Made by a program: the position numbers and the translations under genes. Of a stretch of DNA of 64,000 bases, positions 30,317-62,092 are shown piece after piece. The stretch is from Escherichia phage vB_EcoM_CUA3. The notes under the pieces were generated by a model. It saw only the letters and a list, made by a program, of their open reading frames with translations, searched no databases and was not told the origin of the DNA. The stretch lies in sequence record PP410321; one strand, written 5' to 3'. The first letter of the stretch is position 1; each line of letters opens with the position of its first letter.

Positions 30317-30346
30317 ATTATACTCTGCTCCCAAGAGTTTGTAAAC
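30317..30346 (-). promoter_or_regulatory. Early promoter (GTTTAC, 18 nt, TATAAT)
   Basis: Minus strand GTTTACaaactcttgggagcagagTATAAT. Confidence 0.5.
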
Positions 30347-30449
30347 TACTTTCCAAAAAGACCATGCATACACATGCTGAACACAATCCCAAAACAAAAG
30401 AATGCAGCGCCAAATNNNNNNNNNNNNNNNNNNNNNNNNNNNNNNTCAA

Positions 30450-30740
30450 TCATTTGCACTTCTCCTCTTTTAGTCCGGAACGATAATAACATAACATAGA
30501 TTTTTGGTCTTGTACATATCTTTTTACGTCATTCAACCAAATACGATGTTCTTGTGAGTCTTCAAATGGCATACCGACCCACGCCTTACCATCGATTACC
30601 TTAACCTGCCATTTAACATTATGTTCGGCGATAGGTTGTGGCCATGAAGGATGTAGTTGTTGTTTAGGCGCTACAGGAACATCCTGGGCACATCCAACTA
30701 ACAAGCCAATAGATAATACTACTGCAGCTGATTTAATCAT
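30450..30740 (-). CDS. Outer-membrane spanin (o-spanin lipoprotein)
   Basis: 96 aa; signal peptide with lipobox LLVGC; T4 pseT.2 position. Confidence 0.7.
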   Translation of the reverse strand: MIKSAAVVLSIGLLVGCAQDVPVAPKQQLHPSWPQPIAEHNVKWQVKVIDGKAWVGMPFEDSQEHRIWLNDVKRYVQDQKSMLCYYRSGLKEEKCK

Positions 30741-31090
30741 TCTGTAATGCTCCTGAAGTCTTCTGTAAAGGAATCGAAGGACTTGTTGATTTGTTTTTCG
30801 ACCAATCCTGGCTTACTTGCCACCACGTGCGCCTTCTTCGAATCTTTACGGAGCTTTTCATTTTCTACCTTAATTTTATCCATTCGGGCGTTCATTTCAG
30901 TAGTACGGAATTCAATATCAGAGTATTGACCACGAAGGTCCTCTACAGCTTCAGCGTTCTGTTTAGCCGCTTCCTGGGTCGTTTTCAGTTCTTCAGTAAG
31001 GGTATCAATACGGCTTGATTGATATGAAATCAGACCATAAGCACCTACTGCAAGAGCTCCAGCTAAAAGGTAAATATTTAATTTAGACAT
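30737..31090 (-). CDS. Inner-membrane spanin (i-spanin)
   Basis: 117 aa; N-terminal TM helix then coiled-coil; ATGA overlap with o-spanin; T4 pseT.3 position. Confidence 0.7.
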   Translation of the reverse strand: MSKLNIYLLAGALAVGAYGLISYQSSRIDTLTEELKTTQEAAKQNAEAVEDLRGQYSDIEFRTTEMNARMDKIKVENEKLRKDSKKAHVVASKPGLVEKQINKSFDSFTEDFRSITE

Positions 31091-31578
31091 TTGGTAATAA
31101 TCTCGATGATGTCATCACGCGACAGGGAGTTGATAAGAACCGTTTTAGGGTTTTCACACTGGATTTTATACGTTTCAAACATCACGCACAATTCTTCAGC
31201 GGTATGGTAAGGGCTGGAAATGCCAAGGCGATTAAACTTGTCGCTTAATGGGTCGCAAATCAAATAGAAAGTGATTCCTGCGATTTTAACATTAGGCTGA
31301 CTGATATTAATGAACACCTCGGCATCATACTTAGAAAGGTTGTTTTGGAGAAACTCTACCATAGAGTTAACTGCTTCAGGCATGGCCTCGCGCTTTTCTT
31401 CTGCATAGCGGGTAGAGTATTCTTTTTGCTTGATTTTCTTTTTAGCATTTTTGGCTAAAGTAACACGAAGATCGGTTAGGTAACCTACTGCACGAGAACC
31501 TTTAAAAACTTGGATACCGTCGGTAGAGTCACCAAAAGCTTTAACAACCATTTCGTTAGTAATCATTTGCATATTCAT
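31078..31578 (-). CDS. alc: Alc host-transcription shutoff protein
   Basis: 166 aa, position between spanins and rnlA as T4 alc. Confidence 0.75.
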   Translation of the reverse strand: MNMQMITNEMVVKAFGDSTDGIQVFKGSRAVGYLTDLRVTLAKNAKKKIKQKEYSTRYAEEKREAMPEAVNSMVEFLQNNLSKYDAEVFINISQPNVKIAGITFYLICDPLSDKFNRLGISSPYHTAEELCVMFETYKIQCENPKTVLINSLSRDDIIEIITKCLN

Positions 31579-31608
31579 TTTGTTTTCTCCTCATTAGTTG
31601 GTAGGTCT

Positions 31609-31637
31609 ATACTAACACATCATGAGGAGATGTAAAC
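31609..31637 (-). promoter_or_regulatory. Early promoter (GTTTAC, 17 nt, TAGTAT) for alc
   Basis: Minus strand GTTTACatctcctcatgatgtgtTAGTAT followed by conserved leader CCAACTAATGAGGAG. Confidence 0.55.
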
Positions 31638-32785
31638 TACTCTATCACAATTTCTTTCAAATATTTTTCAGGGATTTGGGCCTTATGATTTTTCAAGAAC
31701 ACAGAGTTAATCTGGTCTACGACCGTATCATAATTAATACCGCCTACGTACGCCTGCATAAGAATAGAGAACAGCCCTGGGAAGTCTTTGAGGATTAACT
31801 GACCTGTAACAGCGTAGTCCTTACGGTCACGACCCTTGAGCTGAGAATATGCTGCTTCTAACAAAGCCAATGACTGTTCTAAGTAGTCTAAATGGATACG
31901 TTCAAATGCGTTGATTTTCTCAATAGCAAACGAATCTGTGCTGAACAAACCTCGGAGGTCATCAGTTCCGCCAGCCACTACAACTTCAAACAAACGCTCG
32001 TTATTGTTAATGGAATCTTTGGTATGATGTAGTGCGCTATACCAAGCGGTTTTGAGTTTAAAGAAAGTGCCATCTTTAAGTACAAAGATAAAGCCTTCAA
32101 TACCCTCTTGTTTGCGAATGTTGTCAACAAAATCGCCTTCAGAGAGTTCGTAGCTTTTAACCAAATGCTTACGCAGGGCGCCATCTTTAAACAGTTCAGA
32201 GTAAGGGATATACTCACCCGTTTCGTTATTACGAACGTTCAGTAAGATAAGGTTTGTTTCTTGGTAAGCCAGCACAATACGGTTAGTAGGCGAAACATAC
32301 TCGAGGTTGCATGTATACCCGGCTTTGGTGATTTCTTCTAAACGGGCCGCGAAGGCTTCGTTTTCAGGGAGACGAAGGAAACGTAAGGAATCATGCACCA
32401 TCGACGAATGGATAGAGCCTTTAGATTTAACGGAAAGATATTGTCTGTCCATGAAGGTAGAAATCAAGGAACCATCTTCCTTAGCCATTACGAGGTCGAT
32501 ATTTTCTTTTGATAAATCCAAACCGATAGTCAATGGGTTTTCATCGAGATTAAAGAACTTTTGCATAGGACGAGCAGCGATACGTACAGGACCGTTCTCG
32601 TCCATCTCAAACATAATGCCTCGACACTCTAGCGCGCCGTCTTCCAACCAATCACTGTACGATGCATAGTTATAACTAAAGATGCGATAGTTGACTCCTA
32701 GCGCACTCTGGAAGTCTTTAAAGAAGAACTTAGATTTAGTTGAGTTTTTAACCAAAGCCATCAAGTTATCATATAATTCAATCAT
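31637..32785 (-). CDS. rnlA: RNA ligase 1
   Basis: 382 aa; adenylation motif KEDGSL; collinear with T4 Rnl1. Confidence 0.9.
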   Translation of the reverse strand: MIELYDNLMALVKNSTKSKFFFKDFQSALGVNYRIFSYNYASYSDWLEDGALECRGIMFEMDENGPVRIAARPMQKFFNLDENPLTIGLDLSKENIDLVMAKEDGSLISTFMDRQYLSVKSKGSIHSSMVHDSLRFLRLPENEAFAARLEEITKAGYTCNLEYVSPTNRIVLAYQETNLILLNVRNNETGEYIPYSELFKDGALRKHLVKSYELSEGDFVDNIRKQEGIEGFIFVLKDGTFFKLKTAWYSALHHTKDSINNNERLFEVVVAGGTDDLRGLFSTDSFAIEKINAFERIHLDYLEQSLALLEAAYSQLKGRDRKDYAVTGQLILKDFPGLFSILMQAYVGGINYDTVVDQINSVFLKNHKAQIPEKYLKEIVIE

Positions 32786-33195: not shown

Positions 33196-33203
33196 AGCAA
33201 TAA

Positions 33204-33217: not shown

Positions 33218-33222
33218 ATTCC

Positions 33223-37950: not shown

Positions 37951-39567
<1,617 letters not shown>

Positions 39568-39593
39568 TTTATTCTCCTCAAGTTGATAAGGCT

Positions 39594-39623
39594 ATAGTAT
39601 CACTACCATAGCCTTAGGTAAAC
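39594..39623 (-). promoter_or_regulatory. Early promoter (GTTTAC, 18 nt, TACTAT)
   Basis: Conserved cassette ...GTTTACctaaggctatggtagtgaTACTATagcc. Confidence 0.5.
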
Positions 39624-39625
39624 AC

Positions 39626-39853
39626 TTATTTTTGAATTAAGCCCATATAAAATTCAGCGTCTTCAGCATGCATACCATCGCAATATTCATCAGCCATAAA
39701 GCGGGTAAGGTCTTCAAGAGGACCTTGAACTTCAATTTGCATACTAAAGAATTGTGTGTCTTTGATATAAGTCATAGTCAAAGAAGGATAACGATTACGG
39801 ATAACTTCGTAAGTGTATTCAAAATCAACGATATCGATATTAACCTTAGCCAT
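39626..39853 (-). CDS. Hypothetical protein
   Basis: 75 aa from MAKVNIDIV with GAGGAAAAT RBS; ORF-track start 39871 lies in leader. Confidence 0.5.
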
Positions 39854-39885
39854 TTTATTTTCCTCACTCATTAGTTGATAGGTCT

Positions 39886-39914
39886 ATAGTATCATGCCTA
39901 TAGACCTTGTAAAC
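39886..39914 (-). promoter_or_regulatory. Early promoter (GTTTAC, 17 nt, TACTAT)
   Basis: GTTTACaaggtctataggcatgaTACTATagacctatcaactaatgag. Confidence 0.55.
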
Positions 39915-39916
39915 AC

Positions 39917-40177
39917 TTATTTTTGAATTTTATCGAGCCACTTACCGAGTTTAATCATTTCCTTAGTGGCTTTTTCCATACTTCTGAATTTAACCAGTAA
40001 AGGTTGGGCATCAACACCCATAACCAAAGTGGTTACAAGACTATGTTCACCTACAAGCCATAACGAATACGTTTGAATATCGAGCCCGTAATTTCGGTCT
40101 TTATGGACCCGTACACCCATTACTTCAAATTTCTCACTGGCTTTTTCTACTGCATCCAGGAAATCATCTTTGGTCAT
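39917..40177 (-). CDS. Hypothetical protein
   Basis: 86 aa from MTKDDFLD; upstream in-frame extension overlaps neighbouring gene. Confidence 0.45.
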   Translation of the reverse strand: MTKDDFLDAVEKASEKFEVMGVRVHKDRNYGLDIQTYSLWLVGEHSLVTTLVMGVDAQPLLVKFRSMEKATKEMIKLGKWLDKIQK

Positions 40178-40566: not shown

Positions 40567-40938
40567 TTAAATTCCAAAGGTAGATTTAATCAAGGCAACA
40601 ACTTCTGCCGCATTTTTGTGATTTACCTGTACATTGATAGTTTGGATATCAACAGCAGGAGCATCGCCATCAACTTCCAGGAAGTGGCAGAATTCCCATT
40701 CACCAAGTTCAAAGTACTCATCAACATCACCCATACTATTCAGGATGGTGCCATCTTTCATTTCAACTTTTTCAACAAAATAATCGCCATCAATATAGCA
40801 CATATCCAGGACTTTGAAGGAATTACCATGTTGTTCCATCNATCNNNNNATNCGCGNNNNNNAATTGTCATCAGGACTACCAGCGATGAATTGTTTTTTG
40901 GCAGCAGGGTCTAATACGTAAAATTTACCGATTTCCAT
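40567..40938 (-). CDS. Hypothetical acidic protein, paralog B
   Basis: MEIGKFYVLDP...ALIKSTFGI; shares termini and EYFEL motif with paralog A. Confidence 0.5.
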   Translation of the reverse strand: MEIGKFYVLDPAAKKQFIAGSPDDNXXXXXXXXMEQHGNSFKVLDMCYIDGDYFVEKVEMKDGTILNSMGDVDEYFELGEWEFCHFLEVDGDAPAVDIQTINVQVNHKNAAEVVALIKSTFGI

Positions 40939-40967
40939 TTTTATTTCCTCATGTAGTTGATAGGTCT

Positions 40968-40996
40968 ATAGTATCATGTTTAAAGGCATTGTAAAC
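40968..40996 (-). promoter_or_regulatory. Early promoter (GTTTAC, 17 nt, TACTAT)
   Basis: GTTTACaatgcctttaaacatgaTACTATagacctatcaactacatgagg. Confidence 0.55.
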
Positions 40997-41048
40997 CATT
41001 AAATGCCAAAAAGGGAAGACCGAAGTCTTCCCATTATAAATCAATAAC

Positions 41049-41954: not shown

Positions 41955-42019
41955 ATTATTTACCTTAGCAGATTTTAGCAGTTGTATTTTATTAACAGTT
42001 TTTAACAGATTAAGTTAGT

Positions 42020-42044
42020 ATATTAACACATTTGATATGAAGCA
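42020..42044 (-). promoter_or_regulatory. Possible MotA-box middle promoter for gene 32
   Basis: Minus strand ATGCTTCA + 12 nt + TAATAT. Confidence 0.35.
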
Positions 42045-43257: not shown

Positions 43258-44205
43258 TTAATAAAAATCAGCTACTGTAGCAGTTAGTTTAGACAAACCG
43301 GATTTAACGAAATAAGGATAAACTTTAGATTTCGAAGGTTTGTTATACGTATTATATCTTTCAGTAATTAAAGCAACAATATCATCCGGAATAAAGTCCA
43401 TATCAATTAAGATTTGGTTTTCACAGAAACGTTCATATTGTTCCTCAGTAAGAAGTGTTTTAATTATATCATGGTCATAATAATTCAGAGCAATTGCTTC
43501 AAGCTCTTTAGCACGAGTACTTGGAGTACGTTCACCTTCAACCATAGTCAACCAATAATCACCACGAACTTTAATACTTGCAACGTTATCCTTGCGGTCA
43601 CCTTTAATAACCTTAGTTACGCAATCAAGCAAAGCATCACCGGATTTTGTTTTGACGAATTTTTTCTGCATTGGAGACCATTGTTTTACCCCAGGGAATT
43701 TATGAAGCTGGGTAAAGTCACCATCAGAAGAACCAATCATAACCGGATGGCCTTTAGCCGTAAGGATTCGAGTCAACACAGCAATATGGTCATCAGCCTC
43801 GATTGTATCGATATTCATAACAATATAAGGCATGTTTTGTTCCAATTCATCCACAATAATATGCATTGCAGTGAATAAGCCTTCCCAATCAAATGGTGAT
43901 TCGTCACGTGCCTTGGCACGGTTTTTCTTATAATAAGAAGAATAACGACGACGCCAATAACCTGATTTAGAGTTATCAACACAAATGATTAGCTGGTTGT
44001 AACCTTGTTTTTTAAAGTCTTTAATGTTTTTCTTGATTGAATTCAACACGAGGTGTCGAAGCATTGCTGTGGTTACTTTAGGAAATCCAGCATTTTCACC
44101 AAATTCTTGGAAGGCCGCCGCCATAATTATTTGGCTGAAATCCAGGAGTAAAAATCCATCTTTTTGTTGGTCTTCTTCAGGAAGTAAAAAATCTAAATCG
44201 TTCAT
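43258..44205 (-). CDS. rnh: RNase H / FEN-family 5'-3' exonuclease
   Basis: 315 aa, acidic active-site residues and helical arch as in T4 RNase H. Confidence 0.9.
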   Translation of the reverse strand: MNDLDFLLPEEDQQKDGFLLLDFSQIIMAAAFQEFGENAGFPKVTTAMLRHLVLNSIKKNIKDFKKQGYNQLIICVDNSKSGYWRRRYSSYYKKNRAKARDESPFDWEGLFTAMHIIVDELEQNMPYIVMNIDTIEADDHIAVLTRILTAKGHPVMIGSSDGDFTQLHKFPGVKQWSPMQKKFVKTKSGDALLDCVTKVIKGDRKDNVASIKVRGDYWLTMVEGERTPSTRAKELEAIALNYYDHDIIKTLLTEEQYERFCENQILIDMDFIPDDIVALITERYNTYNKPSKSKVYPYFVKSGLSKLTATVADFY

Positions 44206-44236
44206 ATGAACCTCTGTCCAATTAGTGTAGAAGGTT

Positions 44237-44265
44237 ATTATATCATGACCCTAGAAGAAGTAAAC
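44237..44265 (-). promoter_or_regulatory. Early promoter (GTTTAC, 17 nt, TATAAT) for rnh
   Basis: Exact consensus on minus strand. Confidence 0.6.
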
Positions 44266-44272
44266 ACTTTGC

Positions 44273-44280
44273 TATAAATA
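44273..44280 (+). promoter_or_regulatory. Late promoter TATAAATA for gene 34
   Basis: Exact TATAAATA 33 nt upstream of gene 34 ATG. Confidence 0.6.
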
Positions 44281-44312
44281 GTTCTATACCCTGAAAACGA
44301 AAAGGAAATAAA

Positions 44313-53100: not shown

Positions 53101-54286
53101 NNNNNNNNNNNNNNNNNNNNNNNNNNNNNNNNNNNNNNNNNNNNNNNNNNNNNNNNNNNNNNNNNNNNNNNNNNNNNNNNNNNNNNNNNNNNNNNNNNNN
53201 NNNNNNNNNNNNNNNNNNNNNNNNNNNNNNNNNNNNNNNNNNNNNNNNNNNNNNNNNNNNNNNNNNNNNNNNNNNNNNNNNNNNNNNNNNNNNNNNNNNN
53301 NNNNNNNNNNNNNNNNNNNNNNNNNNNNNNNNNNNNNNNNNNNNNNNNNNNNNNNNNNNNNNNNNNNNNNNNNNNNNNNNNNNNNNNNNNNNNNNNNNNN
53401 NNNNNNNNNNNNNNNNNNNNNNNNNNNNNNNNNNNNNNNNNNNNNNNNNNNNNNNNNNNNNNNNNNNNNNNNNNNNNNNNNNNNNNNNNNNNNNNNNNNN
53501 NNNNNNNNNNNNNNNNNNNNNNNNNNNNNNNNNNNNNNNNNNNNNNNNNNNNNNNNNNNNNNNNNNNNNNNNNNNNNNNNNNNNNNNNNNNNNNNNNNNN
53601 NNNNNNNNNNNNNNNNNNNNNNNNNNNNNNNNNNNNNNNNNNNNNNNNNNNNNNNNNNNNNNNNNNNNNNNNNNNNNNNNNNNNNNNNNNNNNNNNNNNN
53701 NNNNNNNNNNNNNNNNNNNNNNNNNNNNNNNNNNNNNNNNNNNNNNNNNNNNNNNNNNNNNNNNNNNNNNNNNNNNNNNNNNNNNNNNNNNNNNNNNNNN
53801 NNNNNNNNNNNNNNNNNNNNNNNNNNNNNNNNNNNNNNNNNNNNNNNNNNNNNNNNNNNNNNNNNNNNNNNNNNNNNNNNNNNNNNNNNNNNNNNNNNNN
53901 NNNNNNNNNNNNNNNNNNNNNNNNNNNNNNNNNNNNNNNNNNNNNNNNNNNNNNNNNNNNNNNNNNNNNNNNNNNNNNNNNNNNNNNNNNNNNNNNNNNN
54001 NNNNNNNNNNNNNNNNNNNNNNNNNNNNNNNNNNNNNNNNNNNNNNNNNNNNNNNNNNNNNNNNNNNNNNNNNNNNNNNNNNNNNNNNNNNNNNNNNNNN
54101 NNNNNNNNNNNNNNNNNNNNNNNNNNNNNNNNNNNNNNNNNNNNNNNNNNNNNNNNNNNNNNNNNNNNNNNNNNNNNNNNNNNNNNNNNNNNNNNNNNNN
54201 NNNNNNNNNNNNNNNNNNNNNNNNNNNNNNNNNNNNNNNNNNNNNNNNNNNNNNNNNNNNNNNNNNNNNNNTATAAATATCTTTAA
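50144..54286 (+). CDS. 37: Long tail fibre distal subunit gp37 N-terminus, followed by ~4 kb mask (rest of gp37 and possibly gp38)
   Basis: MATL..IQFKRSK...AQLDEGELAIN matches T4 gp37 N-terminus; remainder not visible. Confidence 0.55.
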   Translation: MATLXXIQFKRSKXXXXXXXXAQLDEGELAINXXXXXXXXXXXXXXXXXXXXXXXXXXXXXXXXXXXXXXXXXXXXXXXXXXXXXXXXXXXXXXXXXXXXXXXXXXXXXXXXXXXXXXXXXXXXXXXXXXXXXXXXXXXXXXXXXXXXXXXXXXXXXXXXXXXXXXXXXXXXXXXXXXXXXXXXXXXXXXXXXXXXXXXXXXXXXXXXXXXXXXXXXXXXXXXXXXXXXXXXXXXXXXXXXXXXXXXXXXXXXXXXXXXXXXXXXXXXXXXXXXXXXXXXXXXXXXXXXXXXXXXXXXXXXXXXXXXXXXXXXXXXXXXXXXXXXXXXXXXXXXXXXXXXXXXXXXXXXXXXXXXXXXXXXXXXXXXXXXXXXXXXXXXXXXXXXXXXXXXXXXXXXXXXXXXXXXXXXXXXXXXXXXXXXXXXXXXXXXXXXXXXXXXXXXXXXXXXXXXXXXXXXXXXXXXXXXXXXXXXXXXXXXXXXXXXXXXXXXXXXXXXXXXXXXXXXXXXXXXXXXXXXXXXXXXXXXXXXXXXXXXXXXXXXXXXXXXXXXXXXXXXXXXXXXXXXXXXXXXXXXXXXXXXXXXXXXXXXXXXXXXXXXXXXXXXXXXXXXXXXXXXXXXXXXXXXXXXXXXXXXXXXXXXXXXXXXXXXXXXXXXXXXXXXXXXXXXXXXXXXXXXXXXXXXXXXXXXXXXXXXXXXXXXXXXXXXXXXXXXXXXXXXXXXXXXXXXXXXXXXXXXXXXXXXXXXXXXXXXXXXXXXXXXXXXXXXXXXXXXXXXXXXXXXXXXXXXXXXXXXXXXXXXXXXXXXXXXXXXXXXXXXXXXXXXXXXXXXXXXXXXXXXXXXXXXXXXXXXXXXXXXXXXXXXXXXXXXXXXXXXXXXXXXXXXXXXXXXXXXXXXXXXXXXXXXXXXXXXXXXXXXXXXXXXXXXXXXXXXXXXXXXXXXXXXXXXXXXXXXXXXXXXXXXXXXXXXXXXXXXXXXXXXXXXXXXXXXXXXXXXXXXXXXXXXXXXXXXXXXXXXXXXXXXXXXXXXXXXXXXXXXXXXXXXXXXXXXXXXXXXXXXXXXXXXXXXXXXXXXXXXXXXXXXXXXXXXXXXXXXXXXXXXXXXXXXXXXXXXXXXXXXXXXXXXXXXXXXXXXXXXXXXXXXXXXXXXXXXXXXXXXXXXXXXXXXXXXXXXXXXXXXXXXXXXXXXXXXXXXXXXXXXXXXXXXXXXXXXXXXXXXXXXXXXXXXXXXXXXXXXXXXXXXXXXXXXXXXXXXXXXXXXXXXXXXXXXXXXXXXXXXXXXXXXXXXXXXXXXXXXXXXXXXXXXXXXXXXXXXXXXXXXXXXXXXXXXXXXXXXXXXXXXXXXXXXXXXXXXXXXXXXXXXXXXXXXXXXXXXXXXXYKYL

Positions 54287-54951: not shown

Positions 54952-55223
54952 AAATTGGAGGTATACATCATTAGATAACGGTGTATATCTTCATACCCTT
55001 CATTAAATTGCTCAATAAGAGTATCACGTTCATCTTCAGTTAAAGACTTAAAGAGTTTATTAAAAGATAGGCTGTTAAGTTCCTTTCCATGCTCATTACG
55101 AATACCCAACTCATTCAAAAAGGCAATAAACTCATCACGGCGTTGCATGATGTCTTCACAATCCGTTTTAATCAAAATAGAAACAATAGTAGCAATTTCG
55201 GAAACGATTTCAATTTTAGTCAT
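54948..55223 (-). CDS. asiA: Anti-sigma70 factor AsiA
   Basis: 91 aa; collinear with T4 AsiA (IFAFLNELG..., EQFNEGYEDIHRYL). Confidence 0.85.
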   Translation of the reverse strand: MTKIEIVSEIATIVSILIKTDCEDIMQRRDEFIAFLNELGIRNEHGKELNSLSFNKLFKSLTEDERDTLIEQFNEGYEDIHRYLMMYTSNF

Positions 55224-55264
55224 AATATTCTCTTCAATTCAGTACGTCATTATCTGATAGGGCT

Positions 55265-55293
55265 ATATTAACATATCTTTAGGAATTGTAAAC
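55265..55293 (-). promoter_or_regulatory. Early promoter (GTTTAC, 17 nt, TAATAT) for asiA
   Basis: Minus strand GTTTACaattcctaaagatatgtTAATAT. Confidence 0.5.
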
Positions 55294-55437
55294 AGGTTCT
55301 TCATTCTTTTTAACATATTCCTGGTACATTTCTTCGATAGGTTCTCGGAACTTAAAATCAGCTCTTAGGAATTCCTCAAAGCACTCCTGCTCACGCGTAC
55401 GCATACCTGTTACAGTGTTCTCTAAGTTATGACTCAT
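55279..55437 (-). CDS. Small acidic hypothetical protein
   Basis: 52 aa MSHNLENTVTGMRTREQECFEEFLRADFKFREPIEEMYQEYVKKNEEPVYNS; not in ORF track. Confidence 0.35.
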   Translation of the reverse strand: MSHNLENTVTGMRTREQECFEEFLRADFKFREPIEEMYQEYVKKNEEPVYNS

Positions 55438-57261: not shown

Positions 57262-57279
57262 AATAATTTCCTCAGTCAG

Positions 57280-57912
57280 TTAAATTGCGTTGGTTACGGT
57301 TTTGATAACTTCAGATGATACGTTTTGGAAGTCGATATAAGTATTCTTACCACCAGTCTTAATCTTAACATCAAGATTCAAAGAAGTAAACACTTGTTTT
57401 TCTTTATCGGTCATATTATAACCGAAGATACGCATCATTCCGTCACGACGGACTTCGATTTGACGAATACCGTTGGTACGTTTAGCGAATCGAACTTCAA
57501 GATTGCTACGGTTTTCAGCGATTTCACGAATCTCGATACGGTCTTCTAACAAAGATTTAACTTCATCAGCCAGTACCACCATTTCAGGAGTAACACCACG
57601 TGAACTGCGAGTTTTACGTTTTTCCAACATCTCTGGAGCATTTTCAGAAGCGAACAGGTCAGCAGCTTTTTGAACTAAGTCCATTGCTTCACCTGTAGCC
57701 ACCAGCCCATCGCCAGATTTTTCGATAAATCCTTTCTTAATCAATACACCGATGTTAGAGTTAACTACCGCAGCACTAAATTGCTCACTCAGGGCTTCAC
57801 GGACTTCGCCTGAAGTGATGAAGTTATGCTTGATGATATGTACTAAGATCGAAGCAGTTTTTTCATTCAGGGCGTCTTCAGAAGCTTTGATGATATAAGT
57901 AATTTTAGACAT
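57280..57912 (-). CDS. motA: MotA middle-transcription activator
   Basis: 210 aa; collinear with T4 MotA (MSKITYIIKAS..., NSNIGVLIKKGFIEKSGDGL). Confidence 0.9.
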   Translation of the reverse strand: MSKITYIIKASEDALNEKTASILVHIIKHNFITSGEVREALSEQFSAAVVNSNIGVLIKKGFIEKSGDGLVATGEAMDLVQKAADLFASENAPEMLEKRKTRSSRGVTPEMVVLADEVKSLLEDRIEIREIAENRSNLEVRFAKRTNGIRQIEVRRDGMMRIFGYNMTDKEKQVFTSLNLDVKIKTGGKNTYIDFQNVSSEVIKTVTNAI

Positions 57913-57949
57913 TTTAATCTCCGNNNNNNNTCATTTATTTGATAGGTCT

Positions 57950-57978
57950 ATAGTATCATGTTTAAAGCAGAAGTAAAC
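57950..57978 (-). promoter_or_regulatory. Early promoter (GTTTAC, 17 nt, TACTAT) for motA
   Basis: GTTTACttctgctttaaacatgaTACTATagacctatcaaataaatga. Confidence 0.55.
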
Positions 57979-58294
57979 TTTATTTTGAGCTCTTTTTCAA
58001 GAGCTCTNNTNNNNNNNNNNNNNNNNNNNNNNNNNNNNNNNNNNNNNNNNNNNNNNNNNNNNNNNNNNNNNNNNNNNNNNNNNNNNNNNNNNNNNNNNNN
58101 NNNNNNNNNNNNNNNNNNNNNNNNNNNNNNNNNNNNNNNNNNNNNNNNNNNNNNNNNNNNNNNNNNNNNNNNNNNNNNNNNNNNNNNNNNNNNNNNNNNN
58201 NNNNNNNNNNNNNNNNNNNNNNNNNNNNNNNNNNNNNNNNNNNNNNNNNNNNNNNNNNNNNNNNNNNNNNNNNNNNNNNNNNTTTGATAGGTCT

Positions 58295-58323
58295 ATAGTA
58301 TCATGTTTAAAGCAGANGTAAAC
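58295..58323 (-). promoter_or_regulatory. Early promoter, near-identical duplicate of the motA promoter
   Basis: Same ~40 nt cassette 345 nt upstream of the first copy; drives masked gene(s) at 58009-58282. Confidence 0.5.
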
Positions 58324-58347
58324 ACTTTTTTGCACTAAACCCAAAAA

Positions 58348-58363
58348 GGAACCCGAAGGTTCC
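58348..58363 (-). terminator. UUCG-tetraloop hairpin directly after a small ORF
   Basis: Minus strand GGAACC-UUCG-GGUUCC followed by TTTTTGGG. Confidence 0.5.
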
Positions 58364-58468
58364 TTACTTTTTAAAGTGAGCTGCTATTAAACCTATAGCT
58401 AAGCCTGTCGCCAGGCCTAGGATAACAGCAAAGATACAGAGTAACAAGAACTCGACTCCAAGGCTCAT
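58364..58468 (-). CDS. Hydrophobic micro-protein (34 aa) translationally coupled to gp52
   Basis: MSLGVEFLLLCIFAVILGLATGLAIGLIAAHFKK; ATGA overlap with gene 52 stop. Confidence 0.35.
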   Translation of the reverse strand: MSLGVEFLLLCIFAVILGLATGLAIGLIAAHFKK

Positions 58469-59844
58469 AGAGCCTCCAAATCTTTAACATACTCAGTTAC
58501 AACATCAGTGGTTTTCCAGTATTGATGCTCTTCTTTCTTGGCCTTAGCTTCGAGGGCTAATTTCTTGGCTTCGTCAGAGGTAATATGGAAAATGTTCATT
58601 GCTACGAGTTTATCAGCATATTCACCATAGACTTTATTACCAGCTAATTCTTCGGTTAAAACCTTACGGGTCTTACCTTGGATAACCACTACGCCATCAA
58701 TAACATCTTTGATAAATGTGGCTTTAGCCAGCGCCAGTTTGAAAGCTTCTTCGGTTTCGATGATTTTACCATCAATACGTTTTTGTACAAAGGTCTTACG
58801 GACCTCAACGAAATCGCGAATCAGTTCAACTGCATCTTCGTAAACCTTGAGTTTACCTTTCTCATTAATGACGGTCAGGTTTTGTGAACGACGTTCTATT
58901 AACCCGAAGTCCTTCATGATTTTTTCGTGCTTCTTGTTTTCTTCAGTAGGCAATTCATATTCTTTACGAATCTTAACCTTGAAGCCGAAACCATTCTCGT
59001 CACAGTCGTCGTCATACGTGATATACCCTTTGTCTTCTAAAGGATCCAACACCTTAGCTACGTACGTTTCACGGTCGTATTTGTACGGGATTTCTGTGAT
59101 ATGCATTTGGGTTCGAGATGTGAACTTATACGTTCCACGAATCTCATAACTACCCGGTTCAATCTCAACAACATCACCGCGGAATTCAGGATAAGCCACC
59201 TTAGGCTTGGTTACTCGTTTTTCCTGAAGAACTTGCAACACAGCTTTCTTAACAGAATCAAAACTATGAGGAAGAATATTAGTTGCATAACCAGTTGCAA
59301 TACCGGAAACACCATTAAGAAGAACAGTAGGAATAATAGGCAGATAAAAAGCCGGTGGCTTATGTTCGACATCCGCATGAACCGGAGCATATTCTGTGTC
59401 CTTATAAACCTTTGCGAAATTAGTTCCAATTCGTGCAAAAATATAACGAGAGGCTGCAGCCTTTTGAACCAAACGAGAACCAAAGTTACCTTGCCCATCC
59501 AAAAGTGGGAAGTTGTTGTTCCATGTGTTAGCCATCAGAGCACCTGCTTCTTGAGCAGAGCCTTCACCGTGGTGATATCCAAGGTCGGCTACACCGCCTG
59601 CAATAGAAGCCAGTTTGTGGAATTTTTCTTTATTGCCACGAGCCATATCAAGACAACGAGCAACTACAAAACGTTGCACAGGTTTAAAGCCGTCAATCAT
59701 ATTTGGAATGGCACGGTTTTCGACAGTATACATGGCATAAGCCAGCGCTTCGTTGTCAATAATGCTTTTTAAGTCACGACGAGTAAAAGTATCATCGTAA
59801 ACATCTAAAGCCTGTTTAAAAAGGGTATCAATTACATCAGCCAT
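58465..59844 (-). CDS. 52: DNA topoisomerase II medium subunit gp52
   Basis: 459 aa; GyrA-like N-terminal breakage-reunion domain (FKPVQRFVV...), T4 synteny motA-52. Confidence 0.9.
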   Translation of the reverse strand: MADVIDTLFKQALDVYDDTFTRRDLKSIIDNEALAYAMYTVENRAIPNMIDGFKPVQRFVVARCLDMARGNKEKFHKLASIAGGVADLGYHHGEGSAQEAGALMANTWNNNFPLLDGQGNFGSRLVQKAAASRYIFARIGTNFAKVYKDTEYAPVHADVEHKPPAFYLPIIPTVLLNGVSGIATGYATNILPHSFDSVKKAVLQVLQEKRVTKPKVAYPEFRGDVVEIEPGSYEIRGTYKFTSRTQMHITEIPYKYDRETYVAKVLDPLEDKGYITYDDDCDENGFGFKVKIRKEYELPTEENKKHEKIMKDFGLIERRSQNLTVINEKGKLKVYEDAVELIRDFVEVRKTFVQKRIDGKIIETEEAFKLALAKATFIKDVIDGVVVIQGKTRKVLTEELAGNKVYGEYADKLVAMNIFHITSDEAKKLALEAKAKKEEHQYWKTTDVVTEYVKDLEAL

Positions 59845-59848
59845 AATT

Positions 59849-59989
59849 TTACCATACTAGTGAATGAATAACCATAATAACATCGGAAATAAAAAGCACA
59901 ACTTGGATAAGCCCGAATATTACCCCATAATACAGTGCTACTAATAAAGCAGCAAGGGCTAACGAGTAGCCCAAGATTTTCTTAATCAT
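59849..59989 (-). CDS. Hydrophobic micro-protein (46 aa)
   Basis: MIKKILGYSLALAALLVALYYGVIFGLIQVVLFISDVIMVIHSLVW; between ndd and 52 (ac/stp/52.1 position). Confidence 0.35.
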   Translation of the reverse strand: MIKKILGYSLALAALLVALYYGVIFGLIQVVLFISDVIMVIHSLVW

Positions 59990-60143
59990 TTTTAATCATC
60001 TTAAGTAAGCCGACAGAAGTAGAAAGCACCCAGGCAATAAACAGAAAACTTAAGAATACTGGACCTGGGGTCCACACGCCTAAAAAGAAGCAAACCGAAC
60101 AGACAATAGCCATAATAAGTTCAATAAAAACCAGAATAACCAT
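59982..60143 (-). CDS. Hydrophobic micro-protein (53 aa)
   Basis: MVILVFIELIMAIVCSVCFFLGVWTPGPVFLSFLFIAWVLSTSVGLLKMIKND; GAGGAAA RBS preceded by GCGUC-UUCG-GACGC hairpin. Confidence 0.4.
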   Translation of the reverse strand: MVILVFIELIMAIVCSVCFFLGVWTPGPVFLSFLFIAWVLSTSVGLLKMIKND

Positions 60144-60230
60144 ATTTTCCTCATTAGCGTCCGAAGACGCCTTTGGTTTTAAGATTGTTACGATAGAACT
60201 GCATCACATGTTCGTTATGGAAATTACTCA

Positions 60231-60680
60231 TTAGTAAGCCTGCAGAACGAATTTAAAGTTATCAGCCAATATACGGTTCATTTCTTCCAGAGTCTGAAGG
60301 TCGGAACTATGGTTGCGAGTGAAAGCCATTGCAATTTGACCTTTACCAAAGCCTGTAGTCAGTGGTTTCATTTTAGAAGCAGGTACATAAAGAACTTCGT
60401 ACACTACGCCATTCACAGCCATGGTACGAGCTGATTGTGAACGTTTCTTACGAATGTTAGCCACAATACCATCAAGACCTTGAGCTGAACGTTGGTTGCC
60501 GACATAAAAGCGTGCAGCTACGACACGAGAATCCGCTCCACCTTTAACAAAGAAGTAGAAGCCAGGTTGAGCAGAGATTTCTTTAGAAGGTTTACCATTT
60601 TGGTATTCACCGTTCTTAACATAAGCAACAGTAGTAGCACCAGCAGACAGAACGTTACGGCGAGTCATATAAGTATTCAT
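60231..60680 (-). CDS. ndd: Nucleoid disruption protein Ndd
   Basis: 149 aa; [10 protein letters not shown] and C-terminal [16 protein letters not shown]...[18 protein letters not shown] as in T4 Ndd. Confidence 0.75.
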
Positions 60681-60757
60681 ATCAATTTCCTCAGTAGATT
60701 AATGTTTTGTTATCCAGTCAACGAGAACCATTATAACATGATTCTCGAGGTTGTAAA

Positions 60758-61102
60758 CTATTTTTGTAGCTGTTCTAAAATAAATCCGCTCGTATAAAAA
60801 GAAGCATTATAAACCTTATTCAGAGGGTGCAAAGCACGTCCGTATGTATCACGTAATTCTTTGATAACATTTTCATAACTCACATAGTAAGCACTACGAT
60901 AGTCAGGGTCCATGCTCATACGGAATTTGATGAATCGATAAAAACCTGTATCCGGGTCTTGAACGAAAACGAAATCCGCACTTGCCATAGTTTTTAAATC
61001 TAGCCCAGTAACCAGTTCTTGATTGAAGGCCGCCAATGCCTCTTTAAGACTGAGCTGCTCAAAGAACATAACCTTAGCATTACCAAAAAATACTTTAGAC
61101 AT
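60758..61102 (-). CDS. Hypothetical protein (ndd.1 position)
   Basis: 114 aa ORF. Confidence 0.45.
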   Translation of the reverse strand: MSKVFFGNAKVMFFEQLSLKEALAAFNQELVTGLDLKTMASADFVFVQDPDTGFYRFIKFRMSMDPDYRSAYYVSYENVIKELRDTYGRALHPLNKVYNASFYTSGFILEQLQK

Positions 61103-61514
61103 AATATTTTCCTNNNNTATTCAGCGTCNNNNNNNNNNNNNNNNNNNNNNNNNNNNNNNNNNNNNNNNNNNNNNNNNNNNNNNNNNNNNNNNNNNNNNNN
61201 NNNNNNNNNNNNNNNNNNNNNNNNNNNNNNNNNNNNNNNNNNNNNNNNNNNNNNNNNNNNNAAAGGAGAAATGCGAATCAATTGTTGCCCATTATGTAAT
61301 ACAAAGCTCTCACCAACTGCGACATCTTTAAAAAGTTTCATAATATTTTCCTCAGAATTAAAGAANNNNNNNNNNNNNNNNNNNNNNNNNNNNNNNNNNN
61401 NNNNNNNNNNNNNNNNNNNNNNNNNNNNNNNNNNNNNNNNNNNNNNNNNNNNNNNNNNNNNNNNNNNNNNNNNNNNNNNNNNNNNNNNNNNNNNNNNNNN
61501 NCATAATATTTTCC

Positions 61515-61631
61515 TCAGAAGTTAAAGAATACACGTACATGGTCAATCATAAAAACGATTGGGAAAATGCTCAATACCAAAAATAACACAAACATGTTCC
61601 AAATTGCTTTAAGTAAGTTTTTCATAATCAT
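61515..61631 (-). CDS. Hydrophobic micro-protein (38 aa)
   Basis: MIMKNLLKAIWNMFVLFLVLSIFPIVFMIDHVRVFFNF; GGAG RBS; behind early promoter. Confidence 0.3.
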   Translation of the reverse strand: MIMKNLLKAIWNMFVLFLVLSIFPIVFMIDHVRVFFNF

Positions 61632-61651
61632 CTCCATTAGTTGATATGTCT

Positions 61652-61680
61652 ATAATATCATGATTAATGGAGATGTATAC
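61652..61680 (-). promoter_or_regulatory. Early promoter variant (GTATAC, 17 nt, TATTAT)
   Basis: Cassette with conserved leader CAACTAATGGAG. Confidence 0.4.
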
Positions 61681-62062
61681 TGATTTATGCCAATTTCCAC
61701 AACAATAAACTAAAACATGCACAAATCACTGGGATACAGGTCAACCAAATAAGGCACCACATTTTGCTACTCAAAATACCACCTCTTTAATTTCAATNNN
61801 NNNNNNNNNNNNNNNNNNNNNNNNNNNNNNNNNNNNNNNNNNNNNNNNNNNNNNNNNNNNNNNNNNNNNNNNNNNNNNNNNNNNNNNNNNNNNNNNNNNN
61901 NNNNNNNNNCGAAGAAATTTACAATCAGAAAGAGATAACTCNGTAATATCANCTTCACCTGATGCATCATACATAGCAGCAACAACCATACCTGTAACTT
62001 TATGTTTAGCGTAATATAATTTGATATCCATTTTGTTTTCCTCTCATGTAGTTGATAGGAAG

Positions 62063-62092
62063 ATAGTAACACCNTCCATGGCGTATGTAAAC
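62063..62092 (-). promoter_or_regulatory. Early promoter (GTTTAC, 18 nt, TACTAT)
   Basis: GTTTACatacgccatgga.ggtgtTACTATcttcctatcaactacatgagagg. Confidence 0.45.

What the first reader, a model, noticed from the sequence alone, without database searches (positions are those of the whole stretch)
30317..62092. Family of near-identical early promoter plus leader cassettes on the minus strand
At least eleven intergenic sites carry the same ~45 nt cassette when read on the minus strand: GTTTAC, 17-18 nt, TA(C/T)TAT, then AGACCTATCAACTAATGAGGA and the ATG. Sites: 30317, 31609, 39594, 39886, 40968, 44237, 55265, 57950, 58295, 61652, 62063. This fits the T4 early promoter consensus (GTTTAC / TATAAT), but here the conservation extends through the transcribed leader and ribosome-binding site. 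The motA copy is duplicated almost exactly 345 nt upstream (58295). The extended conservation suggests a shared leader element or recombination-spread promoter modules.
Basis: partly seen in the sequence, partly recalled or inferred. Interest (0 to 1): 0.45.

Follow-up and report, generated by a model that had tools for sequence, protein, structure and literature searches.

The report
T4-type early promoter cassettes (PeSL-like)
These are the strong early promoters of a JS98-like T4-type coliphage, packaged as short repeated promoter-plus-ribosome-site cassettes; this kind of element is already described in relatives, and here too they mark spots where small genes are gained and lost.

Summary
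The window is a Dhakavirus (JS98-like T4-type coliphage). All 11 listed sites exist on the minus strand directly upstream of early-gene start codons, far above chance. I found four more: 60758, 27905, 24635 and 16573. "Near-identical" is overstated. The -10 plus 12 nt core is shared by 8 sites, and the full 21-nt leader by only 3.

T4 has the same extended consensus (TAcTATA..cTATCAAcTA), so conservation past the -10 is an ancestral T-even early-promoter trait and not a separate leader RNA. The 3' leader is the Shine-Dalgarno plus A-rich stretch, which matches the published RegB/S1 target.

The recombination idea holds. The two identical copies flanking the small ORF upstream of motA bound a cassette present 0, 1 or 2 times in sister phages, with junctions inside the repeat. 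The tandem copies evolve in concert. This matches the published PeSL elements of Arbiol 2010 and Comeau 2014.

One extra result: the 5' half of the -35/-10 spacer is specifically complementary to its own downstream sequence, in both JS98 and T4 (z about -9.5). It pairs either with the discriminator or, in about 20-25% of promoters (here alc and ndd.4), with the Shine-Dalgarno. In that subset only read-through transcripts would have a blocked ribosome site.

The parts
62029..62112 (-). Cassette upstream of orf262-like gene (86 aa). -35 GTTTAC 62092-62087; -10 TACTAT 62068-62063; leader CTTCCTATCAAC...GAGAGGAAAACAAAATG. Only a weak hairpin inside the spacer.
   Evidence: In UGJNEcP3 a full and a partial copy of this cassette flank an inserted ORF.
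61623..61700 (-). Cassette upstream of ndd.4-like small membrane protein. -35 GTATAC 61680-61675; -10 TATTAT 61657-61652. Type B: the last base of the -35 hexamer plus the spacer 5' half, CATCTCCATTA (61675-61665), pairs with TAATGGAGATG (61639-61629), which contains the SD.
   Evidence: MFE -17.6, z -4.0. The T4 orthologue has a different stem with the same topology.
60678..60778 (-). Type A stem CGAGAAUC/GGUUCUCG enclosing the -10. The stop codon TAG of the upstream ORF overlaps the G of GTTTAC.
   Evidence: z -1.9
58283..58343 (-). Upstream copy of the duplicated cassette, driving the orf253-like small ORF (leader and ORF masked by N). -35 at 58323-58318; -10 TACTAT 58300-58295.
58346..58365 (-). 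Intrinsic terminator-like hairpin AAGGAACCTTCGGGTTCCTT plus T-run after gene 52, immediately upstream of cassette 58323.
57910..57998 (-). motA cassette. -35 57978-57973; -10 TACTAT 57955-57950; SD CGGAGATTAAAATG, one mismatch from the RegB/S1 consensus. No significant hairpin. The spacer holds a MotA-box-like TGCTTTA.
55221..55313 (-). asiA cassette. -35 55293-55288; -10 TAATAT; leader AGCCCTATCAGATAATGACG... No significant structure.
   Evidence: z -0.6
44203..44285 (-). rnh cassette. -35 44265-44260; -10 TATAAT; divergent leader. No significant structure.
   Evidence: z 0.0
41013..41032 (-). Intrinsic terminator-like hairpin GGGAAGACTTCGGTCTTCCC plus T-run after gene 32, upstream of cassette 40996.
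40936..41016 (-). frd.2a-like cassette. -35 40996-40991; -10 TACTAT; exact AGACCTATCAAC. No significant structure.
39851..39934 (-). frd.3-like cassette. -35 39914-39909. Type A: AGGUCUAUAG pairs with CUAUAGACCU, with the extended -10 in the loop.
   Evidence: MFE -15.6, z -3.4
39565..39643 (-). frd.1-like cassette. -35 39623-39618. Type A: 13-bp stem UAAGGCUAUGGUA/UACUAUAGCCUUA. The SD region GGAGAATAAAA matches the T4 RegB/S1 consensus exactly.
   Evidence: (MFE -18.2, z -3.45)
31576..31657 (-). alc cassette. -35 31637-31632; -10 TAGTAT. Type B: spacer TCTCCTCAT (31630-31622) pairs with ATGAGGAGA (31594-31586), which is the SD.
   Evidence: MFE -16.8, z -4.3.
30287..30366 (-). Cassette of the TATAAT/CGGATTATAAA subfamily, upstream of a partly masked ORF. 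Type A stem UGGGAGC/GCUCCUA.
   Evidence: z -2.6. Paralogues JS98 39466 and T4 7215 show compensatory changes.
27843..27925 (-). Type A stem GGUAGGACU/AGUCCUACC.
   Evidence: z -2.7
24574..24655 (-). Cassette (GTGTAC) upstream of the 30.6 homologue; leader partly masked. In JS98 the same promoter drives 30.8, and 843 bp (genes 30.7 and 30.8) lie between it and 30.6.
16513..16593 (-). Cassette downstream of alt, driving a 96-aa ORF. -35 16573-16568; -10 TACTAT.
   Evidence: (z -1.1)

Best explanation
The sites are sigma-70-dependent early promoters of a JS98-like (Dhakavirus) T4-type phage. Each is organised as a compact intergenic cassette. It begins with the stop codon of the preceding gene and an A-rich UP-like stretch. 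Then come -35 GTTTAC, a 17-18 nt spacer ending in TGn, -10 TAcTAT, a conserved discriminator and start region (AGACCT|ATCAAC), a short leader, SD plus an A-rich stretch, and the ATG.

The similarity between copies has three sources. (1) An extended early-promoter consensus is shared with T4, and is therefore functional and ancestral. (2) The consensus T-even ribosome site doubles as the RegB/S1 cleavage target. (3) There has been recent duplication, gene conversion and homologous recombination between cassettes. This recombination also inserts, deletes and swaps the small genes the cassettes flank, as PeSL elements do.

Many cassettes also carry a stem-loop whose 5' arm is the first half of the spacer. 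That arm lies upstream of the predicted transcription start, so the stem can form only in RNA read through from an upstream promoter. In one class (type A) it encloses the -10. In another (type B; alc and ndd.4 here) it pairs with the Shine-Dalgarno. For type B the inferred consequence is that only transcripts started at the gene's own early promoter are translatable and open to RegB.

Shown: the sequence architecture, the complementarity statistics, and the comparative indel and concerted-evolution patterns. Inferred: start sites, early timing, RNA-level action and the translational effect.
For: Identity of the genome: the window is 90-98% identical over most aligned blocks to JS98 and other Dhakavirus genomes.

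All 15 sites are on the early-gene strand, 20-50 nt upstream of an ATG.

Consensus: JS98 (42 promoters) and T4 (29 promoters) share GTTTAC...TGnTAcTATA..cTATCAAcTA, with 0.4-1.2 bits per position from -6 to +8. The exact AGACCTATCAA version occurs almost only in about 8 Dhakavirus genomes in IMG/VR.

Literature: T4 early promoters are UP/-35/TGn/-10 promoters with additional consensus regions (PMC2988021). PeSL cassettes are described in RB49/phi1, T4/PST and KVP40/nt-1, with PeSL-like sequences noted in JS98 (PMC2839356 and PMC4122927). The RegB/S1 target is GGAGRAYARAA (PMC1702504); 15 of 42 JS98 leaders and 11 of 29 T4 leaders match within one mismatch.

Recombination: the interval between gene 52 and motA holds 0 extra cassettes in NC-G, UGJNEcP3 and fDHCT2, 1 in the window and JS98, and 2 in IME08. 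The junctions lie inside the identical 41-nt promoter. Tandem copies share lineage-specific substitutions in JS98, IME08 and the Mosigvirus HX01. In UGJNEcP3 an ORF insertion is flanked by a full and a partial cassette. Synteny breaks against JS98 occur at 28 of 111 gene starts with a cassette and 46 of 356 without one (OR 2.3, p = 0.003).

Stem-loops: the spacer 5' half pairs with its own downstream sequence far better than with that of other promoters. In JS98 the values are -8.05 versus -4.27 kcal/mol (z -9.5, p < 5e-5). In T4 they are -8.4 versus -3.8 (z -9.4). Six of the 11 unmasked window cassettes fold with z of -2.6 or lower, and a seventh reaches -1.9.

Cognate-specific SD occlusion of at least 4 kcal/mol is seen in 9 of 42 JS98 promoters and 7 of 29 T4 promoters. 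It affects the same genes in both genera (motB.2, modB, nrdC.8, regB, denV, ndd.4), and the stem sequences differ in five of the six. regB orthologues from other lineages show covarying arms.
Against: There are no transcription start or timing data for this phage. The +1 position is assumed to be 7 nt after the -10.

Four of the 11 foldable window cassettes have no significant structure. About a third of the genome-wide promoters have none either.

Averaged over all promoters, cognate upstream sequence does not occlude the SD more than non-cognate upstream sequence (Wilcoxon p 0.66 and 0.93). SD occlusion is therefore a property of a subset.

Comparing sense and antisense stability does not discriminate RNA-level from DNA-level selection.

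The stem position is not conserved between lineages for alc. One regB lineage has only type A.

Many indels in the same region are not bounded by promoters. One is flanked by an RBS-leader repeat, one by stp paralogues, and one has no obvious repeat. The enrichment tests count related genomes, so the events are not independent.
Confidence: 0.85

Rival explanations
1. The conserved segment after the -10 is a distinct cis-acting leader RNA element, such as a regulator-binding site, an sRNA target or a riboswitch-like structure, shared by many early mRNAs.
For: Conservation continues into transcribed sequence (ATCAACTA...). The 3' part of many leaders matches the RegB/S1 recognition sequence GGAGRAYARAA, so part of the leader is a known protein-recognised RNA site.
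Against: The best-conserved bases, AGACCT, lie upstream of the predicted start. The leader is 20-45 nt long and is predicted to be open in the promoter's own transcripts, with a mean opening energy of 2.9 kcal/mol. Rfam gives no hit. Only 3 sites share the full 21-mer. T4 shows the same consensus, and there it is regarded as part of the promoter.
Confidence: 0.07
2. The similarity is pure functional convergence. Each promoter was independently optimised for host RNA polymerase and ribosomes, and recombination between copies played no part.
For: The consensus is shared across genera. T4 early promoters are known to be selected for extreme strength.
Against: Different cassettes carry identical 17-nt spacers, which polymerase does not read base by base; examples are 57978/58323 and JS98 49264/49576. 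Tandem copies share lineage-specific substitutions, which indicates concerted evolution. Presence/absence polymorphisms have junctions inside the repeat. The same cassette sits upstream of different genes in T4 and JS98: AAACTCTTGGGACC...GGTCCC is at T4 motB and at JS98 55.2.
Confidence: 0.08
3. The stem-loops act as transcription terminators or attenuators for upstream transcription, which is the function proposed for PeSL stem-loops, and not through the ribosome-binding site.
For: One RB49/phi1 PeSL stem-loop reduced downstream lacZ expression about as much as rrnB T1 (PMC2839356). For alc the stem is present in several lineages at different positions relative to the promoter. That fits a position-independent role in read-through RNA.
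Against: The spacer-based stems here are not followed by a U-run. True terminators (UUCG hairpin plus T-run) occur as separate elements upstream of only two window cassettes. The specific, gene-conserved pairing with the SD and its flanks in type B is not needed for termination.
Confidence: 0.2
4. The inverted repeats work at the DNA level. They could form cruciforms or hairpins that modulate promoter melting or supercoiling response, or that attract recombination enzymes such as endonuclease VII. Alternatively they could be by-products of quasi-palindrome templated mutation.
For: Most stems are perfect Watson-Crick pairs with no clear excess of G-U on the sense strand. The cassettes are recombination sites. 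The PeSL authors speculated about a stem-loop-binding recombination protein.
Against: Type B arms are separated by 25-30 nt, which is unfavourable for cruciform extrusion but ordinary for RNA. [quoted passage not shown] Conservation of SD pairing for the same genes in T4 and JS98 points to an RNA-level effect.
Confidence: 0.12

Closest known systems
PeSL (promoter-early stem-loop) cassettes of T4-type phages (Arbiol et al. 2010, PMC2839356; Comeau et al. 2014, PMC4122927)
   Same: [quoted passage not shown] They contain an AT-rich stretch and a strong sigma-70 early promoter, with a stem-loop between -35 and -10 or overlapping the -10. They occur in many copies per genome, are concentrated in variable regions, and flank small ORFs that are present or absent between close relatives with crossovers inside the motif. 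The T4/PST promoter consensus TTTACW-N17-TAYWAT matches. The 2010 paper already notes PeSL-like sequences in JS98.
   Different: This is the Dhakavirus sequence variant (AGACCTATCAA after the -10, stems not of the GGGG/CCCC type). Mini-circles were not tested. A class whose 3' arm is the Shine-Dalgarno is not mentioned in either PeSL paper. About a third of the promoters here have no detectable stem.
Bacteriophage T4 early promoters (UP / -35 GTTTAC / TGn / -10 TAtAAT with additional consensus regions; Hinton 2010, PMC2988021)
   Same: The -35 hexamer, spacer length, extended -10, A-rich upstream stretch and the downstream ..CTATCAAC.. motif are the same. Orthologous genes are served: motA, asiA, ndd, rnh, frd.x.
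   Different: The preferred spacer is 17 nt in JS98-like phages and 18 nt in T4. The discriminator is AGACCT, against ACAACT or TACCCT in T4. Activity and timing have not been tested for this phage.
Promoter-inside-hairpin translational control of T4 late genes e, soc, 49 and I-TevI (Uzan and Miller 2010, PMC3014915)
   Same: The topology is the same as in type B cassettes. The SD is paired with a segment that lies upstream of the proximal promoter's start point. Long read-through transcripts are therefore closed and proximal transcripts are open.
   Different: In the known cases the internal promoter is a late (gp55) promoter, and the effect is to delay expression. Here the internal promoter is an early sigma-70 promoter, the 5' arm is its own -35/-10 spacer, and the predicted effect is to confine translation to the immediate-early burst. 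This has not been tested experimentally.
RegB/S1 cleavage sites in T4 early mRNAs (GGAGRAYARAA; Durand et al. 2006, PMC1702504)
   Same: The 3' part of many leaders is GGAGAATAAAA or a close variant. Window cassette 39623 matches exactly and motA has one mismatch. T4 motA and regB mRNAs are known targets.
   Different: Only a minority of the window cassettes fit: 2 of 12 readable leaders are within one mismatch (read by eye from the leaders). Many have GGAA, which RegB cuts poorly.

Membership tests
T4-type early promoter | -35 hexamer GTTTAC, 17-18 nt spacer, -10 TAnnAT | tested here: met
   15 minus-strand sites. The JS98 and T4 consensus sequences are compared.
T4-type early promoter | Extended -10 (TGn) and an A-rich UP-like stretch at about -40 to -50 | tested here: met
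   TG is present at -15/-14 in 13 of 15 window sites; 30346 and 55293 lack it at that position. The A-rich columns carry 0.4-1.0 bits.
T4-type early promoter | Located upstream of early genes and oriented with them | tested here: met
   The downstream genes are orthologues of T4 motA, asiA, ndd, alc, rnh, frd.1/.2/.3 and ndd.4.
T4-type early promoter | Primary 5' ends immediately after infection; sigma-70 dependence; shut-off after a few minutes | not testable with these tools
   This needs dRNA-seq, 5' RACE or in vitro transcription.
PeSL cassette | Composite motif running from the upstream stop codon through an AT-rich stretch and the promoter to the SD and ATG, repeated many times per genome | tested here: met
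   The stop codon overlaps or abuts the -35 in 8 of 15 window cassettes.
PeSL cassette | Stem-loop within or next to the promoter | tested here: met
   Six of the 11 foldable window cassettes have z of -2.6 or lower, and a seventh has -1.9. Genome-wide self-versus-cross tests give z of about -9.5 in JS98 and T4. The stem is absent in about a third of promoters.
PeSL cassette | Association with indels or replacements between close relatives, with crossovers inside the motif | tested here: met
   The gene 52-motA locus has 0, 1 or 2 extra cassettes. UGJNEcP3 has an insertion flanked by cassette copies. Breaks are enriched at cassettes with OR 2.3, p = 0.003.
PeSL cassette | Formation of circular excision products (mini-circles) during infection | not testable with these tools
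   This needs inverse PCR on infected cells or virions.
PeSL cassette | Stem-loop acts as a terminator or attenuator | tested here: inconclusive
   The spacer-based stems have no U-run after them. Separate canonical terminators sit upstream of two cassettes.
RBS-sequestering hairpin with an internal promoter (T4 e/soc/49/I-TevI type) | SD and/or AUG paired in long transcripts, with the 5' arm upstream of the proximal start site | tested here: met
   This is a prediction only. Window cassettes 31637 and 61680 show it. The opening-energy penalty is at least 4 kcal/mol and cognate-specific in 9 of 42 JS98 promoters and 7 of 29 T4 promoters.
RBS-sequestering hairpin with an internal promoter (T4 e/soc/49/I-TevI type) | The internal promoter is a late (gp55, TATAAATA) promoter | tested here: not met
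   The internal promoters are sigma-70 early type. The cassettes work like this family but are not members of it.
RegB/S1 target site | Single-stranded GGAG followed by an A-rich stretch (GGAGRAYARAA) in the intergenic leader | tested here: inconclusive
   Cassette 39623 matches exactly and motA has one mismatch. Most other window leaders have GGAA or at least 2 mismatches.

The most novel reading that the evidence does not exclude
In roughly a fifth to a quarter of T-even early promoters, including alc and ndd.4 in this window, the -35/-10 spacer (or the -10/discriminator region) doubles as an anti-Shine-Dalgarno sequence. This holds for the same genes in T4 and JS98: regB, modB, motB.2, nrdC.8, denV and ndd.4. 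Transcription starts downstream of that arm, so only mRNAs started at the gene's own early promoter have an open ribosome site and an exposed RegB target. Read-through RNA from upstream early or middle promoters is translationally silent and shielded from RegB. This would hard-wire these proteins to the first minutes of infection. It is the mirror image of the known late-gene hairpins (e, soc, 49, I-TevI). I did not find it described in the PeSL papers or in the 2010 T4 post-transcriptional review.
Probability: 0.3. Interest if true: 0.6.

Novelty: new member of a known kind. Interest (0 to 1): 0.33.

Why it matters
It re-identifies T4-type early promoters and their PeSL-like cassette organisation in a JS98-like phage, and is useful mainly for annotation. 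Several cassettes precede ORFs that are unannotated in JS98, and they show where this phage group gains and loses small early genes.

The follow-up adds one testable idea. The non-contacted half of the promoter spacer is under selection to pair with downstream RNA, sometimes with the ribosome-binding site itself. If true, this gives T-even phages a cheap way to make translation depend on which promoter produced the mRNA. It would bear on an old question, namely how synthesis of immediate-early proteins such as RegB is confined to the first minutes while the same genes continue to be transcribed from upstream. It can be tested directly in T4 with existing genetics.

Tried and rejected
1. Rfam scan of the whole window at gathering thresholds gave no hit. 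No known RNA family overlaps the cassettes.

2. I compared sense and antisense folding, and G-U counts, on 148 unique cassettes to decide between RNA-level and DNA-level selection. The result was marginal and contradictory: a difference of -0.55 kcal/mol (p = 0.04), but more G-U pairs in the antisense folds. I treat this as inconclusive.

3. I tested whether cognate upstream sequence occludes the SD more than non-cognate upstream sequence across all promoters. It does not (p 0.66 and 0.93). Only a subset shows the effect, so I dropped the idea that SD occlusion is a general property of the cassettes.

4. I considered the MotA-box-like TGCTTTA in the motA promoter spacer as a hybrid middle promoter. 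I rejected this because it lies 7 nt from the -10, not the 11-13 nt required.

5. I considered a transposon- or MITE-like mobile element. There are no terminal inverted repeats or target duplications, and the junctions fit homologous exchange between repeats.

6. Not all indels are promoter-bounded. One is flanked by a 27-nt RBS-leader repeat, one by duplicated stp genes, and one has no evident repeat.

The T4 RefSeq record carries no promoter annotation. The Miller 2003 review is not held in the library.

Full report
**What the window is.** A 6-kb and a 7.2-kb segment match Escherichia phage JS98 and other Dhakavirus genomes (Straboviridae, Tevenvirinae). Most aligned blocks are 90-98% identical to JS98, with numerous indels and one block (t/asiA) at 76%. 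The gene order follows the JS98 annotation: alt, 30, 31, cd, pseT, alc, rnlA, nrd, td, frd, 32, 59, 33, rnh, then the tail-fibre genes on the other strand, then asiA, arn, motA, 52, ndd, denB, rIIB. About 13.5 kb of the window is masked as N in 71 runs. This hides some leaders.

**Checking the observation.** All eleven coordinates are real. Each is the + strand start of a minus-strand match made of a GTTTAC-like hexamer, a 17-18 nt spacer and a TAnnAT hexamer, followed by SD and ATG. The strict pattern occurs 7 times against 0.17 expected. The -10 plus the next 12 nt (TACTATAGACCTATCAAC, at most 3 mismatches) occurs 8 times on the minus strand against 0.05 expected.

The description "same ~45 nt cassette" is too strong. 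The 21-nt leader is matched within 3 mismatches at only three sites. Sites 30317, 44237 and 55265 have other -10 hexamers and unrelated leaders.

Four further sites of the same kind were missed: 60758 (ndd), 27905, 24635 and 16573. None lies on the + strand.

The cassettes nearly fill their intergenic gaps. In eight of fifteen, the stop codon of the preceding ORF overlaps or abuts the -35 (TAG-TTTAC or TAAGT-GTTTAC). Two are preceded by canonical UUCG-hairpin plus T-run terminators, at 58365-58346 and 41032-41013.

**Is the extended conservation special to this phage?** No. I collected 42 promoters from JS98 and 29 from T4. The two consensus sequences are almost superimposable:
- JS98: AaAaAA.tGTTTACATc..C...CaTGaTAcTATAGaCCTATCAAcTa
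- T4: A.AAA.ttGTTTACAt......TgTGGTAcTATA.aacTATCAAcTA

Positions -6 to +8 carry 0.4-1.2 bits each.

Conservation through the discriminator and the first transcribed bases is therefore an ancestral feature of T-even early promoters. [quoted passage not shown] Only the exact AGACCTATCAA variant is lineage-specific. In IMG/VR it is found almost only in about eight Dhakavirus genomes, roughly ten copies in each.

The 3' part of the leader is the SD plus an A-rich stretch. The T4 RegB/S1 cleavage target is GGAGRAYARAA, most often GGAGAAUAAAA (PMC1702504). Fifteen of 42 JS98 leaders and 11 of 29 T4 leaders match within one mismatch. In the window, the frd.1-like cassette (39623) matches exactly and motA has one mismatch. 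Rfam finds nothing in the window. There is no need to invoke a separate leader RNA element.

**Recombination-spread modules.** [quoted passage not shown] They were described in RB49/phi1 and later in T4/PST and KVP40/nt-1 as sites of homologous exchange that insert, delete and swap small genes. PeSL-like sequences were noted in JS98 (PMC2839356; PMC4122927).

The duplicated cassette at 57978 and 58323 is a clean example.
- Between the gene 52 terminator and motA, phages NC-G, UGJNEcP3 and fDHCT2 have a single promoter.
- The window and JS98 have promoter, orf253, hairpin, promoter.
- IME08 has a further promoter-plus-ORF unit.
- In every case the junction lies within the identical 41-nt promoter.

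The orf253 homologue is present in 17 Dhakavirus records and 77 Mosigvirus records. In Mosigvirus HX01 it is again flanked by two near-identical promoters.

The two tandem copies share lineage-specific substitutions: AACATGATACTAT in JS98, AACGTGTTATTAT in IME08, and GCTTCA...ATATTAT in HX01 (alignment A1). This is concerted evolution.

Other examples are as follows.
- UGJNEcP3 has an ORF inserted between a full and a -35-less copy of the 62092-type cassette.
- fDHCT2 replaces the sequence upstream of the orf262 start codon with a different cassette.
- The window lacks 30.7 and 30.8, so the JS98 30.8 promoter is fused to 30.6.
- The same cassette (AAACTCTTGGGACC...GGTCCC) precedes motB in T4 and 55.2 in JS98.

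Across about eight Dhakavirus genomes, synteny breaks relative to JS98 occur at 28 of 111 gene starts that have a cassette and at 46 of 356 that do not (OR 2.3, p = 0.003). A cruder control gave OR 2.9.

Two caveats apply. The events are shared among related genomes, so they are not independent. Other short repeats also mediate indels, including a 27-nt RBS-leader repeat and duplicated stp genes.

**Stem-loops.** Reading the cassettes showed that the first half of the -35/-10 spacer is often the reverse complement of sequence further downstream. To test this, I joined each promoter's spacer 5' half to the remainder of every promoter and measured the gain in folding energy.
- JS98: cognate combinations gain -8.05 kcal/mol and non-cognate ones -4.27 (permutation z -9.5, p < 5e-5).
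- T4: -8.4 against -3.8 (z -9.4).

In the window, six of eleven fully readable cassettes fold with z between -2.6 and -4.3. A seventh reaches -1.9, and four show nothing.

Two main classes appear.
- Type A: the stem encloses the extended -10, and its 3' arm is the discriminator and +1 region. Window examples are 39914 (AGGUCUAUAG/CUAUAGACCU), 39623, 27905, 30346 and 60758.
- Type B: the 3' arm is the Shine-Dalgarno and its flanks. Window examples are alc at 31637 (UCUCCUCAU/AUGAGGAGA) and ndd.4 at 61680 (CAUCUCCAUUA/UAAUGGAGAUG).

Compensatory differences between paralogues and orthologues are frequent.
- GGGACC/GGTCCC against GGGAGC/GCTCC.
- T4 20612 against T4 57990.
- regB: AUCUCCUGUAG/CUACAGGAGAU in Dhakavirus, UUUUCCUCUUGACUG/CAGUUAAGAGGAGAA in T4, and a 15-bp UUUCUCCUCUUUAUG/CAUAAAGAGGAGAAA in another lineage.

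**What the stems might do.** The 5' arm lies upstream of the predicted start (+1 taken as 7 nt after the -10). The stem can therefore exist only in RNA read through from an upstream promoter.

Predicted energies to open the SD-AUG window rise between own-promoter and read-through transcripts: from 2.9 to 6.3 kcal/mol in JS98 and from 3.4 to 6.9 in T4. Most of that rise is generic, however. Compared with non-cognate upstream sequences, a cognate-specific penalty of at least 4 kcal/mol is seen in only 9 of 42 JS98 promoters and 7 of 29 T4 promoters. Two and none, respectively, go the other way, and the overall test is not significant.

The affected genes largely coincide in the two genera: motB.2, modB, nrdC.8, regB, denV and ndd.4. 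That is six shared out of seven in each genome's list, among about 19 promoter pairs present in both sets. By my own hand count, the hypergeometric p is about 0.002. The stems differ in sequence in five of the six.

This topology is that of the known T4 hairpins at e, soc, 49 and I-TevI, where a late promoter sits inside the hairpin (PMC3014915). Here the internal promoter is an early one. The predicted effect is to confine translation, and exposure of the GGAG to RegB, to transcripts made from the gene's own early promoter. Neither PeSL paper mentions pairing with the SD, and the 2010 review lists only the late-gene cases.

For type A stems I cannot choose between three roles: an attenuator (as proposed for PeSLs), an RNA-stability or insulating hairpin, or a DNA-level role.
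- The stems lack a U-run.
- Sense-versus-antisense statistics are inconclusive.
- The position of the stem differs between lineages for alc.

**Verdict.** The finding is real but ordinary in kind. It consists of T4-type early promoters in PeSL-like cassettes of a JS98-like phage. The "beyond T4" conservation is in fact shared with T4, and the recombination idea is supported and already published for relatives. The most interesting residue is the spacer-encoded complementarity, especially the gene-conserved anti-SD subset. This rests on sequence statistics and comparative evidence only.

Noticed in passing
window 57950-57978 and 58295-58323 (-); L069 833-873 and 1156-1196; L006 about 23633-23674: The spacer of the motA promoter, and of its tandem twin, contains a MotA-box-like TGCTT(T/C)A in Dhakavirus and Mosigvirus. 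T4's motA promoter has the inverted AAAGCA. The box is only 7 nt from the -10, so it is not a middle promoter. It could be a site for MotA autoregulation or early shut-off.
   Followed up: partly
window 2012-2037, 21373-21397, 25953-25977, 43351-43375, 59927-59951 (all -): There are middle-promoter-like sites (TGCTTTA, 11-13 nt, TAnnnT): 6 matches against 1.3 expected, five of them on the early-gene strand.
   Followed up: no
window 60229/60230; L001 about 44056-44446 (JS98 166056-166446): JS98 carries two stp-like paralogues, each followed by a UUCG hairpin and an RBS. The window and several relatives have one. This is a 464-bp deletion between the paralogous repeats and is not promoter-mediated.
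   Followed up: partly
L001 about 45770-45907 (JS98 167769-167906): A small ORF present in JS98 is flanked by 27-nt direct repeats consisting only of the RBS leader (TTCTGAGGAAAATATTATG). NC-G, IME08, UGJNEcP3 and fDHCT2 lack it. The conserved ribosome-site leader alone can therefore serve as a recombination substrate.
   Followed up: partly
L001 about 42011-42030 (3' end of JS98 orf253); masked in the window (58011-58282): The last codons of orf253 read AAAGACCTATCAATCTAA, which resembles the AGACCTATCAA segment that follows the -10 in the cassettes. This may be a relic of an older exchange.
   Followed up: no
window 61623-61639; JS98 168029-168041; T4 166749-166764: ndd.4 is annotated in JS98 and T4 as starting at an ATG that overlaps the GGAG (ATGGAG...). 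The ATG 12-15 nt downstream has proper SD spacing and is the more likely start.
   Followed up: no
L003 about 3740-3790 (IME08, upstream of motA): IME08 has a third, degenerate cassette (TATACA AAGGTCTATGATAATGT TATTAT AGACCTATCAAATAAATGG) in front of motA. It follows an extra unannotated ORF that begins ATGAAAACCTTA.
   Followed up: partly
JS98 136610, 49576, 52687 and 72621 (L001, L007, L008); window 29821-30318: Several strong cassettes in JS98 are followed by SD+ATG and an ORF that the RefSeq record does not annotate. These are probably missed small early genes.
   Followed up: no
JS98 12541 and T4 13186 (modB promoters): This is a third hairpin arrangement. The 5' arm is the -10/discriminator region itself (GACCUC, or GAUAGCUUC in T4), and it pairs with the SD (GGAGGUC, or GGAGGCUAUC in T4). 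The 5' arm is again excluded from the promoter's own transcript.
   Followed up: partly
window, whole: 13,527 of the 64,000 bases are N, in 71 runs. The largest are 50242-54271 and 2264-4282. These runs mask parts of genes and three cassette leaders.
   Followed up: yes
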